Below are positions 21,001 to 24,000 of a DNA stretch of 64,000 nucleotides, one piece after another. Positions within the stretch are counted from its first letter, which is position 1. Every line of letters starts with the position of its first letter. The stretch comes from Candidatus Levyibacteriota bacterium. Lineage in GTDB: Bacteria > Patescibacteriota > Microgenomatia > Levybacterales > UBA12049. The stretch covers positions 11,819 to 75,818 of the forward strand of contig JBBSGT010000001.1 in assembly GCA_038253825.1 (NCBI GenBank). Reading direction: 5' to 3'. Made by a program: the position numbers.

Positions 21001-24000
21001 AATGGATATAACATCGCGTTCTGGTAATGTAATCAATATCTCCATCTTTAGTTTGTCCGACACTGGGATGAAGTAAAATTTTTGCTTCATACGTCTTGGC
21101 TGCATCTTTAATCAATGTATAGTGTGCTCGATGTAGGGGATTACGAGTTTGAAATCCAATAACTTTTTCCCAACCAAATTTTTTAAATACCTTTCGTAGT
21201 TCTGTGGGAGTAAGTCTAAAATCAGTAAAATCGTAGTGTGGAATTTCTTTTAATCCTTCAATTTTTCCTCCGAGATAGTATTTACCCGTTGCGTCAAACA
21301 GTTGTCTTACCCCAAAGTGATCAGTATCAGTTGTATCATACACTTTTTTTGCTTCTTTCTTCTTATCTGGTTGATAGATTGAGGTAATTGTGAAGAGTGC
21401 ATATGGTTCATTATACGCATCACAGAGTAGTAAAATAGTTCCTTCTTTATAATTTGATATATCATCAACGTCCAGGACAATAGGAATTGGCCATACAGTT
21501 CCGTCTGTCAGTCTGGCATCATTGACTACAGACTGATATGTATTTTCATCCATAAAACCTTCAAGTGGAGAAAACCCGCCATTGAGCAGTAATTCCAGAT
21601 CACAAAGTTGTCTCTGTGTAAGAGTTATACGGAGAGCAGTTTCGAACTGTTCAAGAAGCTTTTGTCTTTTGCTAGATTCTGTAATAACTAATGGTTTTAA
21701 CAAACCTCCATGAGCCAAAAAAGTGGTTTCTAATTTCGTTATCATTTTTTTAGTGTAATTGTTTTTTTAGAGAAATGCTACCTAAATAATAACATTATTT
21801 CTTGTCTCTATGCTTTTATCCCTCAGAAAAAGCTGTTTCAGGTACTTGACAAAGGTATATGCTCGTGTATACGATGAATATAACAAAAGGATATGAAGAT
21901 ACAAAAAGGCATCCATCATTTAAAATATACAAGACCGCAATGGTATAAGGATTATCATCAGTGGGAACACCATGCTTTCTTACATTGGGCGACCTTTGTG
22001 GTTTCTTCAATTGTCATTACAATGGGATTCGTAAATATTGTATTTCAGATGCAGCAACACGCTCCTAAAGTTGAAATAGCAAATGCTGCAAGCACTGTAT
22101 TGACACAAAATGTTAATGGTGGTACTTTAACTATCTCAAATAACGGGAATCAGGCGCTCAGTGCAGCAACAGTATCTACATCAAATCAAAATACAACCGG
22201 TAGTCTCGGGACAATTACCGTAACTGATAATAGAGGTACTGGAGCTGGCTGGAATGCTACAGCGACATCAACGCATTTTCTGAAATTTAACGCTGCTACG
22301 AAAATAACAGGTGCTAATTCCACCGTATCTACAAATACCGGCAGCAGTACGTGGTCAGGCGTCACTGGCGGGACATATACCATAACTATTGCAACCGGTG
22401 GATCAGTGGGTACTGCGACATTTAACGTTACTGGTCTTGAATCAGCTAGTAATGTTCCTACTGGTAGTGGTACAGGTATTGCAATCGGTATAAAAGGACT
22501 ATTGGCAGACTTCAATACTGCGACATATGTTACTGGTGATTCTTGGACTATCCGGGTAGATGTTATTCCTGTAACTGGGTTACAGATTACACCTGGTGCA
22601 GTATCGCCTTCAACCGGTATCACCGGGGGATCAGTGCATACGTTTACAACTACTACAGATCCAGCAAGTCTGATGAGTGCAACAGCAGGAAACGGTTTGG
22701 GATCATACACTCAAACCCCAAGTCTGCAATTAACTGTTCCTGCAAATTCTTATGCCAACAGCTATACAGCTACTGTCACAGAAACTGTACTGTAACACTG
22801 TGTTTTTTAAAATGAAGAAATTATTATTTTTAATTCTCCTATTACCTTTTTTTTCTATTTTTACCCCTATTGCTTTTGCATCGTCTACTCTTGATCAAAA
22901 AGATTTAAATCAGAACGGCTATTATGACAATGTCGAACGGTATCCCGCTCAAAGTTTTGTTCCAACAGAGTCTTCTCCTATCTCAGAAATTGATCTCTCA
23001 ATTTGCAAAAAGGGATCTCCTAACGAAAATGTATATCTAACATTAGAAAATGATTCTAATGGATATCCTTCAGGTTATCCATTAGTTACTTCGAGCGTAA
23101 TCAATACTAGCGATCTACAAACTTGTCCCTCAGGAGAATGGAAATCTTTTAACTTTTCTTCTACTTACAATTTTACTTCAGGAAGGACTTATTGGCTGGT
23201 AACCCATACTACTAATCAAGGGACTGACACAGATAATGTCGCTTATGCATATGATGGAAATAATAATTATCCAATGGGAACACTTGCACAACATATTGCT
23301 GCTTGGACTTATCAAAGTTTTGATTTAGATTTCAAAGAGTATTATGATCATTCATTGACTCCGATTGGACCGGTATTAGATCAATCGGTTACAACTGGTA
23401 CTGATAATTACTCCTACTCTAATTCAAGCAATTCAACTCGTAAACAGGTAGCAGAATCATTTACACCTTCATATTCAGGTCGTATTAGTCAAATTAGTAT
23501 TGATTCAAGTATCTATTCAGCGGAGGTAGGAAGTACTTACATAACTATTAACTCAGATAATTCGGGAAGCCCATCAAATAACATTTTGTGTACTTCATCT
23601 AATATTGATTTCAATACTTTTCCAATTAATCCCAATTATAGCTACATTAATTATTCATTCTCTTGTAATTATAATTTTAATTCCGGTAGTAAATATTGGA
23701 TTGTTACTCATTCCCCGATTTTAATTGGGAATACTCCATATGTTCATAGTTCTAATACGAATGTATACCCTAATAATTATATGTTCTTTTTCGATGGGAC
23801 GTCTTGGAATAAAAATAATTATAATTTTAATTTTAAAGAATATTTTGATAATTCTGCAACAATAACGCCTACCCCTACAACGCAACCTATATACACTGTT
23901 AATGGTATAGTATATCAAGATATCAATCAAAATGGATTGCAAGACAGTGGAGAATCAGGATTCGCAAACGCAACAGTTACATTATCAGACGGACAGTCAT

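What the first reader, a model, noticed from the sequence alone, without database searches (positions are those of the whole stretch)
21893..22060. Conserved His/Trp/Tyr-rich cytoplasmic N-terminal motif replaces a signal peptide on two WxL-like paralogs
Seen in sequence. Protein A begins 'IHHLKYTRPQWYKDYHQWEHHAFLHW'. Protein B (28513-28690) begins 'YHHVRHTRPKWYHEYHKWEHHNTLHW'. Each is followed by a single TM helix. Nearly every position is conserved (H-H-x-x-x-T-R-P-x-W-Y-x-x-Y-H-x-W-E-H-H-x-x-L-H-W). Firmicutes WxL proteins instead use a cleavable Sec signal peptide. This could be a metal-binding patch, a sorting or secretion signal, or a regulatory handle specific to this lineage.
Basis: seen in the sequence. 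Interest (0 to 1): 0.6.

Follow-up and report, generated by a model that had tools for sequence, protein, structure and literature searches.

The report
Conserved cytoplasmic tag on export helices
Two small surface proteins of an uncultured Levyibacteria (CPR) genome begin with a strongly conserved histidine- and aromatic-rich segment just before their membrane-export helix; the same segment also sits on a giant fibre protein found across this lineage, which suggests an undescribed, lineage-specific export or anchoring signal.

Summary
Proteins A (21893-22795) and B (28513-29433) both carry HHxxxTRPxWYxxYHxWEHHxxLHW directly before one TM helix.

The motif is translated. It is not a relic of a recent duplication: 43 homologs at 47-67% identity keep R-P-x-W-Y-x-x-Y-H-x-W, and A-type and B-type orthologs sit in the same conserved gene array in other genomes.

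- **A signal-peptide core is still there.** After the TM come a roughly 10-13-residue linker and an AxA site. That site aligns exactly with the cleavage sites of motif-less homologs, so the motif extends a signal peptide or anchor rather than replacing it.
- **The motif is not specific to WxL-like proteins.** The same motif+TM module occurs in about 87 species-representative genomes, all with Levyibacteria, Woykebacteria, Patescibacteria or placeholder labels. There it lies inside giant tail-fibre-like proteins, after about 350 cytoplasmic residues (two integrase SAM-like domains). Non-CPR relatives of those proteins have ordinary signal peptides at that position.

Both families are encoded next to WxLIP (DUF916/DUF3324) genes. 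Pfam, NCBIfam, the PDB and the searched literature do not describe the motif.

Best reading: a lineage-specific cytoplasmic juxtamembrane sorting or anchoring tag. Cleavage, any partner and any metal binding remain untested.

The parts
21893..22795 (+). Gene for protein A, a small WxL-like surface protein of 300 aa
   Evidence: ORF. Pfam WxL PF13731 scores 30.3 bits against a cut-off of 25. It is 100% identical to P0001, named 'WxL domain-containing protein, Candidatus Levyibacteriota'.
21914..21988 (+). Motif core of A, residues H8-W32: HHLKYTRPQWYKDYHQWEHHAFLHW. Predicted cytoplasmic, as two short helices broken at T13-R14-P15.
   Evidence: AF2 predicts helices 3-12 and 16-22, with a third helix starting at residue 27.
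21989..22048 (+). TM helix or h-region of A, residues A33-Q52, including the conserved GFxN
   Evidence: AF2 predicts a continuous helix 27-55.
22049..22087 (+). Polar linker of A ending in A63-N64-A65, a predicted signal peptidase I site. The mature protein would start at A66.
   Evidence: Column counts: position -3 is Ala in 29/46 sequences and position -1 is Ala in 41/46. The site aligns with the cleavage sites of classical-signal-peptide homologs P0042, P0048 and P0053. AF2 predicts disorder for residues 60-73.
28513..29433 (+). Gene for protein B, the second small WxL-like paralog of 306 aa
   Evidence: ORF. It is 56% identical to A and equals P0021.
28552..28626 (+). Motif core of B, residues H14-W38: HHVRHTRPKWYHEYHKWEHHNTLHW
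28627..28719 (+). TM helix of B (V39-A59) plus a linker ending V67-N68-A69, a predicted signal peptidase I site
22812..25499 (+). Large surface protein with SdrD_B, OmpL47-type and post-COAP-1 domains and a classical signal peptide. The listed ORF starts at 22752, but the likely start is ATG 22812 (MKKLLF...).
25558..26694 (+). WxLIP (DUF916-type) protein with a classical signal peptide and C-terminal TM helices
   Evidence: Pfam WxLIP_PGBD, E = 2.4e-12.
26775..28439 (+). Large WxL-like protein of 554 aa with a classical signal peptide and no motif
   Evidence: Pfam WxL scores 30.4 bits. Sequence.
29438..30958 (+). Second WxLIP protein, with an added C-terminal LytR_C domain and a classical signal peptide
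   Evidence: Pfam WxLIP_PGBD E = 1.8e-15 and LytR_C E = 6.9e-11.

Best explanation
**What it is.** The His/Trp/Tyr-rich segment is the cytoplasmic, membrane-proximal half of a roughly 55-65-residue export or anchoring module. The parts, in order, are:
- a short helix carrying the His-His pair;
- an invariant Arg-Pro kink;
- an aromatic/His helix (WYxxYHxW);
- a TM helix of about 20 residues;
- a polar linker of about 10-13 residues;
- an AxA-type signal peptidase I site.

In Levyibacteria and close CPR relatives this module occupies the slot of an ordinary Sec signal peptide on two unrelated families of cell-surface proteins. One family is the small WxL-like proteins, A and B here. The other is a giant trimeric-fibre (MAT/tail-fibre-like) protein, in which the module follows about 350 cytoplasmic residues. 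Both families are encoded next to WxLIP (DUF916/DUF3324) genes.

**How it most likely works (inferred).** The TM helix is inserted N-in by the general Sec/SRP pathway and exports the ectodomain. The motif stays on the cytoplasmic face. There it acts as a lineage-specific sorting or assembly tag, marking this subset of surface proteins for a common site, partner or timing. This would resemble what YSIRK, ESPR or KxYKxGKxW motifs do for subsets of secreted proteins elsewhere. For A and B, cleavage at the AxA site probably follows. The mature WxL-like domain would then be held at the surface by the membrane-anchored WxLIP proteins.

**Shown versus inferred.** Conservation, distribution, module architecture, the position equivalent to a signal peptide and the WxLIP linkage are shown. 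Topology, cleavage and the sorting role are inferred.
For: **Conservation and age**
- 43 homologs at 47-67% identity keep the motif.
- A-type and B-type orthologs lie in the same array (A / WxLIP / large WxL / B / WxLIP+LytR_C) in other genomes.

**Equivalence to a signal peptide**
- More distant WxL homologs have classical signal peptides. Their cleavage sites align with the conserved AxA that follows the TM in motif-bearing members.
- In the giant family, non-CPR relatives have classical signal peptides ending 4-6 residues before NFQGRLTD. The CPR members instead have motif+TM+(L/F)AA..PPRILSFQGRLTD.
- All Bdellovibrio MAT fibres carry their conserved N-terminal beta-rich domain directly after a signal peptide (PMC10769870).

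**Shared module**
- A profile built only from WxL-type motifs retrieves MerR-HTH and 2xSAM-like giant proteins with the motif immediately before a TM.
- A profile built only from 72 giant-family modules hits A (E = 3.7e-13) and B (E = 1.4e-10) among 649 window ORFs. The next best hit has E = 0.19.
- AF2 gives the same helix / RP-break / helix / TM pattern in both families.

**Lineage restriction**
- All 91 true pattern matches carry Levyibacteria, Woykebacteria, Patescibacteria or placeholder labels. The 9 chance hits are in other taxa. None were found in viral contigs.

**WxLIP linkage**
- At least 53 of about 87 giant loci have a WxLIP-like gene just upstream, in a conserved array.

**Selectivity**
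- In the same operon, the four other secreted proteins use classical signal peptides.

**N-in topology**
- K+R counts are higher before the TM than after it: 2.7 against 1.1 in the WxL type, and 3.1 against 1.6 in the giants.

**Novelty**
- There is no Pfam or NCBIfam model, PDB chain or paper for the motif.
Against: - There is no experimental evidence for topology, cleavage, sorting or any partner.
- A hydrophobic helix of 20-21 residues followed by a 10-13-residue spacer is atypical for a signal peptidase I substrate. It fits an uncleaved signal-anchor equally well.
- In the giant family the module follows about 350 conserved cytoplasmic residues. This argues that it is not simply a signal-peptide n-region, and that the polypeptide may stay intact.
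- No candidate recognition factor was identified. The co-located TM206, TM633 and WxLIP proteins are only suggestions.
- The genome-wide survey used a pattern derived from the WxL-type motif. It therefore measures the distribution of that exact version only, and it makes the cross-family profile score partly circular. The independent search found the giants first.
- The helices are only moderately amphipathic.
Confidence: 0.55

Rival explanations
1. The module is an uncleaved type II signal-anchor with a passive topogenic collar. The TM helix keeps A and B, and the giant fibre, permanently tethered to the membrane. The motif is only an interfacial collar of aromatic, basic and His residues that fixes N-in orientation and helix depth. 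There is no specific partner. It would substitute for the peptidoglycan-binding W-x-L motifs that these proteins have lost.
For: - The hydrophobic helix has full TM length and is followed by a long spacer.
- The W-x-L tryptophans are degenerate in A and B (sequence).
- The giant proteins retain large cytoplasmic domains fused to the module.
- Trp, Tyr, Arg and Lys at membrane interfaces and the positive-inside rule are established knowledge. The K/R bias is shown.
Against: - Residue-exact conservation (R-P-x-W-Y-x-x-Y-H) across two families is much stricter than a compositional collar needs.
- A conserved AxA-type site sits at the position of the classical cleavage site in both families.
- Other membrane-anchored proteins of the same operon, the WxLIPs, do without the motif.
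Confidence: 0.22
2. The motif is a metal-binding or pH-sensing patch. Four conserved histidines, at H(-5), H(+8), H(+13/14) and H(+17) relative to the Arg, come from three short helices. They coordinate Zn, Ni or Cu, or sense cytoplasmic pH, at the inner membrane face. This would stabilise a fold or regulate the protein.
For: - The proteins average about 7 His before the TM helix.
- H17 of the alignment is invariant and H21, H22 and H26 are at least 90% conserved.
- The helix-kink-helix-kink-helix prediction could bring the histidines together.
Against: - There are no Cys, Asp or Glu ligands and no match to any known metal-site family.
- The H13/H14 position shifts by one residue between the two families.
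- The invariant residues are as much aromatic (W, Y, Y, W) as His.
- Metal binding would not by itself explain why the motif always sits exactly before an export helix.
Confidence: 0.1
3. The module is part of a contact-signalling or regulated-proteolysis device. Signal peptidase cuts at the AxA site, as happens for the anti-sigma factor RsiV, and an intramembrane protease then cuts the TM. This releases the cytoplasmic part, which in the giants is the SAM-like or MerR DNA-binding domains. The motif would be the handle for that step.
For: - The giants combine cytoplasmic DNA-binding-type domains, the module, an AxA-like site and an adhesin ectodomain.
- One variant carries a MerR HTH instead of the SAM-like domains.
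Against: - A and B have nothing to release apart from the 30-residue motif itself.
- No protease gene is linked to the loci.
- The idea rests entirely on analogy.
Confidence: 0.06
4. The motif is an artefact. Either it is untranslated leader sequence because the true start is downstream, or it looks conserved only because A and B duplicated recently.
For: - Several database gene calls start at a Met inside the TM helix.
- Neither gene has an SD sequence upstream.
Against: - The motif is conserved at protein level in 43 homologs and in a second family.
- A and B differ by synonymous codons at conserved positions.
- For a mis-called homolog, the DNA shows the motif in frame with its own ATG.
- Starting at M44 would leave no usable signal peptide.
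- A-type and B-type orthologs exist in other genomes.
- The genome as a whole lacks SD sequences.
Confidence: 0.02

Closest known systems
YSIRK-G/S signal peptides of Gram-positive surface proteins (Pfam PF04650)
   Same: Both are conserved sequence motifs inside an otherwise ordinary Sec signal peptide. Both mark a subset of surface proteins, and other secreted proteins in the same cell lack them. YSIRK is thought to direct where secretion occurs.
   Different: - There is no sequence relationship, and no Pfam hit.
- YSIRK is short and lies at the n/h border.
- The motif here covers about 25 residues, is rich in His and aromatic residues, is separated from AxA by a full-length TM helix, and also occurs internally after about 350 residues.
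ESPR, the extended signal peptide region of autotransporters, TpsA proteins and trimeric adhesins (Pfam PF13018)
   Same: Both are conserved N-terminal extensions of about 25 residues with aromatic and basic residues placed before a normal signal peptide. Both are found on very large surface adhesins and fibres.
   Different: - ESPR is proteobacterial, is always at the extreme N-terminus and has its own small hydrophobic segment.
- There is no sequence match.
- The motif here is internal in the giant proteins.
KxYKxGKxW signal peptides (TIGR03715) of serine-rich glycoproteins exported by the accessory SecA2/SecY2 system
   Same: Both are long signal peptides with an extended n-region carrying a conserved aromatic/basic motif. 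In the known case the motif routes a small set of adhesins to a dedicated pathway.
   Different: - There is no NCBIfam hit.
- No accessory Sec genes were seen near the loci.
- The lineage and the cargo are different.
Firmicutes WxL / csc gene clusters: small WxL, large WxL and WxLIP (DUF916-DUF3324-TM)
   Same: The cluster composition matches: two small WxL-like genes, one large one, and WxLIP genes. It fits the description in PMC9772566 and PMC10599100.
   Different: - In Firmicutes all cluster proteins are reported to have plain N-terminal signal peptides (PMC9772566).
- Here the two small proteins carry the extra module and lack the canonical Trp of the W-x-L motifs.
- About 91% of known WxL proteins are from Firmicutes. 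This cluster is from a CPR bacterium.
Bdellovibrio MAT (mosaic adhesive trimer) fibres and phage tail fibres with S74/G2 intramolecular chaperone domains
   Same: The second motif-bearing family shares the N-terminal beta-rich domain (NCBIfam Bdello_MAT_N, E = 2e-7 and 1e-4, below the cut-off) and Peptidase_S74/G2 domains.
   Different: MAT fibres carry that domain directly after a normal signal peptide (PMC10769870). The Levyibacteria proteins have two SAM-like domains, the motif and a TM helix in that position.

Membership tests
WxL domain proteins (Pfam PF13731) | Profile match above the Pfam gathering score | tested here: inconclusive
   A scores 30.3 bits against a cut-off of 25, but over only part of the profile (positions 55-140 of 214). 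B has no WxL hit at E<=0.1. Many homologs have a precomputed PF13731 hit.
WxL domain proteins (Pfam PF13731) | Dual Trp-x-Leu motif (PMC10599100 abstract) | tested here: not met
   The first motif is G-W-N-A in A and G-W-T-A in B. The C-terminal position reads T-E-T-V and has no Trp (sequences). The proteins are therefore 'WxL-like', not canonical.
WxL domain proteins (Pfam PF13731) | Encoded in a cluster with a WxLIP (DUF916/DUF3324/TM) gene and a large WxL protein | tested here: met
   The arrangement is conserved in other genomes.
Sec-type (signal peptidase I) signal peptide | Positively charged n-region, hydrophobic h-region, and small residues at -3 and -1 (AxA) | tested here: met
   K/R bias is and the helix. 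Position -3 is Ala in 29/46 sequences and -1 is Ala in 41/46, aligned to classical sites. The dimensions are atypical: n-region about 32 aa, h-region about 20 aa and c-region about 13 aa.
Sec-type (signal peptidase I) signal peptide | Actual cleavage by signal peptidase I | not testable with these tools
   This needs N-terminal sequencing or proteomics. No SignalP or DeepTMHMM tool was available.
YSIRK / ESPR / KxYKxGKxW extended signal peptides | Match to the family profile (PF04650, PF13018, TIGR03715) | tested here: not met
   No such hit for A, B or the isolated 67-residue N-terminus in Pfam (E<=0.1) or NCBIfam (E<=1).
Tat (twin-arginine) signal peptide | S/T-R-R-x-F-L-K immediately before the h-region | tested here: not met
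   There is a single Arg followed by an invariant Pro (T-R-P-x-W-Y), and 17 residues separate it from the TM helix.
Type IV pilin-like (class III) signal | Short leader ending in Gly, cleaved on the cytoplasmic side, followed by a hydrophobic helix with Glu at position 5 | tested here: not met
   No G|F/M...E signature appears before the TM helix in any of the 43 sequences.

The most novel reading that the evidence does not exclude
The motif is the recognition tag of a dedicated Levyibacteria-specific sorting or assembly system for host-attachment structures. A cytoplasmic or inner-leaflet factor reads the R-P-x-W-Y-x-x-Y-H module. Candidates are the conserved TM206 and TM633 membrane proteins of the giant-fibre operon, or the TM helices of the WxLIP proteins. 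This factor gathers the giant trimeric fibre and the small WxL-like proteins into one surface complex. It might also couple host contact to the cytoplasmic DNA-binding domains through cleavage at the AxA site.
Probability: 0.2. Interest if true: 0.8.

Novelty: new variant of a known kind. Interest (0 to 1): 0.62.

Why it matters
CPR/Patescibacteria are thought to live attached to host cells, yet how they build and sort their surface adhesins is almost unknown. This work defines a compact, easily searched sequence module that labels the major fibre-like and WxL-like surface proteins of one whole CPR lineage. The module sits where other bacteria place a plain signal peptide.

If it is a sorting or assembly signal, it would add a new member to the small set of 'address labels' inside signal peptides (YSIRK, ESPR, KxYKxGKxW, Tat). 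It would also give a handle for identifying the attachment apparatus of Levyibacteria.

There are practical consequences too:
- Gene callers often start these genes at a Met inside the TM helix, cutting off the motif.
- No Pfam or NCBIfam model covers the motif.
- The module can be tested in heterologous hosts with reporter fusions, even though the organisms are uncultured.

Tried and rejected
- **Word-indexed protein search with the motif alone.** The 44-column alignment returned nothing at E<=10 and cost one of the three searches.
- **Known families.** Pfam and NCBIfam scans of A, B and the isolated N-terminus found no model covering the motif. The same was true for giant-family members.
- **Solved structures.** A Foldseek search of the AF2 model against the PDB gave nothing below E = 1e-3. 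PDB sequence searches with the motif profile and the full-length profile gave nothing meaningful. The afdb50 library was not available, so the WxL fold could not be confirmed structurally.
- **Literature.** Searches for WxL + CPR, Levybacteria + signal peptide, and the motif strings found no paper.
- **Amphipathicity.** The hydrophobic-moment scan showed only moderate amphipathicity (0.35-0.5), and the script stopped early on a missing scale value. No argument rests on it.
- **Other small proteins in the giant operon.** The sp255 and p479 proteins showed no detectable similarity to the WxL-like proteins of the window.
- **Phage origin.** The viral-contig scan gave only two chance hits.
- **Tat and pilin-type signals.** These were considered and rejected on sequence grounds.
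Full report
**1. The observation**

ORFs 21893-22795 (protein A, 300 aa) and 28513-29433 (protein B, 306 aa) lie on the + strand. They start with MKIQKGIHHLKYTRPQWYKDYHQWEHHAFLHW-ATFVVSSIVITMGFVNIVFQ and MAGLHKKTLHTIYHHVRHTRPKWYHEYHKWEHHNTLHW-VTFALSSVVMLLGFINALLLAQ.

The proteins are 56% identical overall. In the 26-residue motif, 16 residues are identical and 6 of those use different synonymous codons. A six-frame regex scan finds the motif nowhere else in the window.

Stop codons lie directly upstream of ATG 21893, and no in-frame ATG occurs before the TM helix in either gene. 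The window belongs to a Candidatus Levyibacteriota MAG: P0001 is 100% identical to A and P0021 equals B.

**2. The motif is ancient and translated**

A full-length search returned 66 homologs. Forty-three of them, at 47-67% identity, carry the motif. The invariant residues are R-P-x-W-Y-x-x-Y-H-x-W, and four further positions (three His and one Trp) are at least 90% conserved. This equals the conservation of the folded domain's core. Ordinary signal-peptide n-regions are not conserved like this.

Other genomes have the same gene array: A-type WxL-like / WxLIP / large WxL-like / B-type WxL-like / WxLIP+LytR_C. The A/B duplication is therefore old, and both copies have kept the motif.

Some database entries start at a Met inside the TM helix. 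For one of them (P0049), the DNA shows the motif in frame upstream with its own ATG, so those are mis-called starts.

Only about 4 of 42 genes in the window have an SD-like sequence.

**3. What follows the motif**

AF2 was run on a 46-sequence alignment (mean pLDDT 89). It predicts helix 3-12, a break at T13-R14-P15, helix 16-22, a short break, one long helix 27-55, a disordered stretch 60-73, and then a beta-rich domain.

In the family alignment, the disordered stretch contains a conserved A-x-A. Position -3 is Ala in 29/46 sequences, with Val, Thr or Ser in most of the rest. Position -1 is Ala in 41/46, and +1 is Ala in 30/46. These columns align with the cleavage sites of homologs that have ordinary signal peptides and no motif (P0042, P0048, P0053).

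The N-terminus of A therefore reads as a 65-residue signal peptide or signal-anchor:
- an n-region of about 32 residues that contains the motif;
- an h-region of about 20 residues;
- a c-region of about 13 residues ending A63-N64-A65.

The motif extends a signal-peptide-like element rather than replacing it. Whether the site is actually cut cannot be decided here.

**4. The motif is not specific to WxL-like proteins**

A profile of the 34-residue motif alone was scored against 1.84 billion representative proteins and gave 10 hits at E<=1e-3. Besides WxL-like proteins, these were:
- P0070, with a MerR HTH domain;
- P0071, P0072 and P0074, each with two Phage_int_SAM-like domains and up to 2141 aa long;
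- P0073.

In all of them the motif lies directly before a TM helix but is internal, at residues 57-418. After the TM comes ...AA.PTAPPRILSFQGRLTD.

A search with this region found more CPR members carrying the module. It also found relatives from other phyla in which an ordinary signal peptide ends 4-6 residues before NFQGRLTD.

A strict DNA pattern (H-x4-R-P-x-W-Y-x2-Y-H-x-W/Y) was run over one genome per GTDB species and returned 100 loci. About 87 are giant proteins of this second family, with the motif at residue about 310-470. Four are WxL-type. Nine are chance matches in short ORFs of unrelated taxa. My own rough calculation put the chance expectation at about 17.

The properly named source genomes are Levyibacteriota/Levybacteria, Woykebacteria and 'Patescibacteria group'. 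About 50 carry the title 'uncultured Gammaproteobacteria' (TPA assemblies) but encode the same array, so those titles are probably placeholders. One MAG holds both a WxL-type gene and a giant-type gene (L039 and L072). Viral contigs gave only chance hits.

A profile built only from 72 giant-family modules recovers A (44 bits, E = 3.7e-13) and B (36 bits, E = 1.4e-10) among 649 window ORFs, and nothing else below E = 0.19. This is partly circular, because the giants were collected with a WxL-derived pattern. However, the independent search had already linked the two families.

AF2 on a giant-family fragment gives the same helix / K-R-P break / helix / TM pattern. The giants also keep a small-residue site, (A/I/V)-(L/F)-A | (A/S), about 8 residues before PPRILSFQG.

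**5. What the second family is, and what links the two**

Complete giant proteins have four recognisable parts:
- two N-terminal integrase SAM-like domains;
- the module;
- a region weakly matching the N-terminal domain of Bdellovibrio 'mosaic adhesive trimer' fibres (NCBIfam Bdello_MAT_N, below the cut-off);
- Peptidase_S74 or Peptidase_G2 intramolecular-chaperone domains typical of trimeric tail fibres.

In Bdellovibrio, all MAT fibres carry that beta-rich domain 'immediately following the signal peptide' (PMC10769870).

I clustered the neighbouring ORFs in the 8-kb loci. This shows a conserved array: LeuRS< TM206> sp255> WxLIP-like> (p479> WxLIP-like> Ig-like<) GIANT> TM633>. The roughly 326-aa neighbour, present in at least 53 loci, is a distant WxLIP homolog. 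Its Pfam WxLIP_PGBD hit has E = 0.004. BLASTP against the window's WxLIP gives E = 2e-10, and other members give E from 1e-6 to 1e-3.

Both motif-bearing families are therefore encoded beside WxLIP-type proteins. In Firmicutes, WxLIP proteins are membrane-anchored partners proposed to bind WxL domains near their N-terminus (PMC10599100).

In the window's own operon, the other four secreted proteins use plain signal peptides. These are the 915-aa SdrD_B protein, the two WxLIPs and the 554-aa WxL-like protein. The module thus marks a subset.

**6. Mechanism**

Shown:
- a conserved, translated module in which the motif directly precedes a TM helix;
- its position, which is equivalent to a signal peptide in two unrelated ectodomain families;
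- restriction to one lineage;
- linkage to WxLIP genes;
- selective use within an operon.

Inferred:
- N-in topology, from the K/R bias and from the cytoplasmic-type domains upstream of the module in the giants;
- Sec/SRP insertion;
- probable signal peptidase cleavage for A and B;
- a role as a sorting or assembly tag read on the cytoplasmic face.

I commit to this last reading at about 0.55. The rivals are a passive, uncleaved anchor collar (about 0.22), a His-based metal or pH site (about 0.10), a regulated-proteolysis handle (about 0.06) and an artefact (about 0.02).

**7. Comparison with known systems**

The module works like the conserved motifs found in some signal peptides: YSIRK-G/S, ESPR and KxYKxGKxW. 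It matches none of their profiles.

It also differs in three ways. It is rich in His and aromatic residues. It is followed by a full-length TM helix. It can sit internally after large cytoplasmic domains.

It is not a Tat signal or a pilin-type signal.

A and B are WxL-like rather than canonical WxL proteins. A passes the Pfam threshold only partially and B not at all. The defining Trp-x-Leu motifs are degenerate, but the gene-cluster context is met.

No Pfam or NCBIfam model, PDB chain or paper in the searched library covers the motif.

**8. Verdict**

I class it as a new variant of a known kind, a motif-bearing export signal or anchor. Its mechanism is open but can be tested directly.

Noticed in passing
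window 19928-21745 (-) and 30997-31755 (+): Two genes flank the WxL-like cluster. One is a fused ATP-sulfurylase/APS-kinase (PAPS synthesis) gene. The other is a 252-aa ORF with a weak, sub-threshold Sulfotransfer_2 hit (E = 0.0045). Surface components of this locus might be sulfated.
   Followed up: partly
whole window (42 gene starts): Only about 4 of 42 genes have an SD-like sequence. Many have TATAAT-like boxes 7-12 nt upstream of the ATG, which suggests leaderless or very short-leader mRNAs.
   Followed up: partly
window 22752-25499: The mechanically listed 915-aa ORF overlaps the end of gene A. It probably starts at ATG 22812 (MKKLLFLILLLPFFSIFTPIAFA|SS, a classical signal peptide). It has SdrD_B, OmpL47-type and post-COAP-1 domains and is absent from the equivalent locus in other genomes.
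   Followed up: partly
loci L003-L102 (GTDB species representatives): In Levyibacteria-type genomes the giant motif-bearing fibre gene sits in a conserved array: LeuRS< TM206> sp255> WxLIP-like> (p479> WxLIP-like> Ig-like<) GIANT> TM633>. TM206, sp255, p479 and TM633 have no Pfam family.
   Followed up: partly
loci L003, L006, L008-L010 and about 45 others: About 50 representative MAGs titled 'uncultured Gammaproteobacteria bacterium' (TPA_asm; SRP*/binchicken* isolates; GC 0.33-0.48) carry the Levyibacteria-type giant-fibre array. The titles look like placeholders or mislabels.
   Followed up: no
P0038, P0044-P0046, P0049, P0050; locus L103 1399-1500: Public gene calls for several homologs start at a Met inside the TM helix, which cuts off the motif. 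In L103 the motif is present in frame upstream with its own ATG.
   Followed up: yes
giant-family proteins, e.g. L015 6-4301 (-), L032 2000-6208 (+), P0070: A surface fibre adhesin is fused, across one TM helix, to cytoplasmic DNA-binding-type domains: two tyrosine-recombinase SAM-like domains, or in P0070 a MerR HTH. No recombinase catalytic domain is present. This architecture is unusual and unexplained.
   Followed up: partly
window 28466-28512: A short inverted repeat (AAGGCA-TAAGTAG-TGCCTT) lies between the large WxL-like gene and gene B, just before the ATG of B. It is not followed by a T-run and its function is unknown.
   Followed up: no
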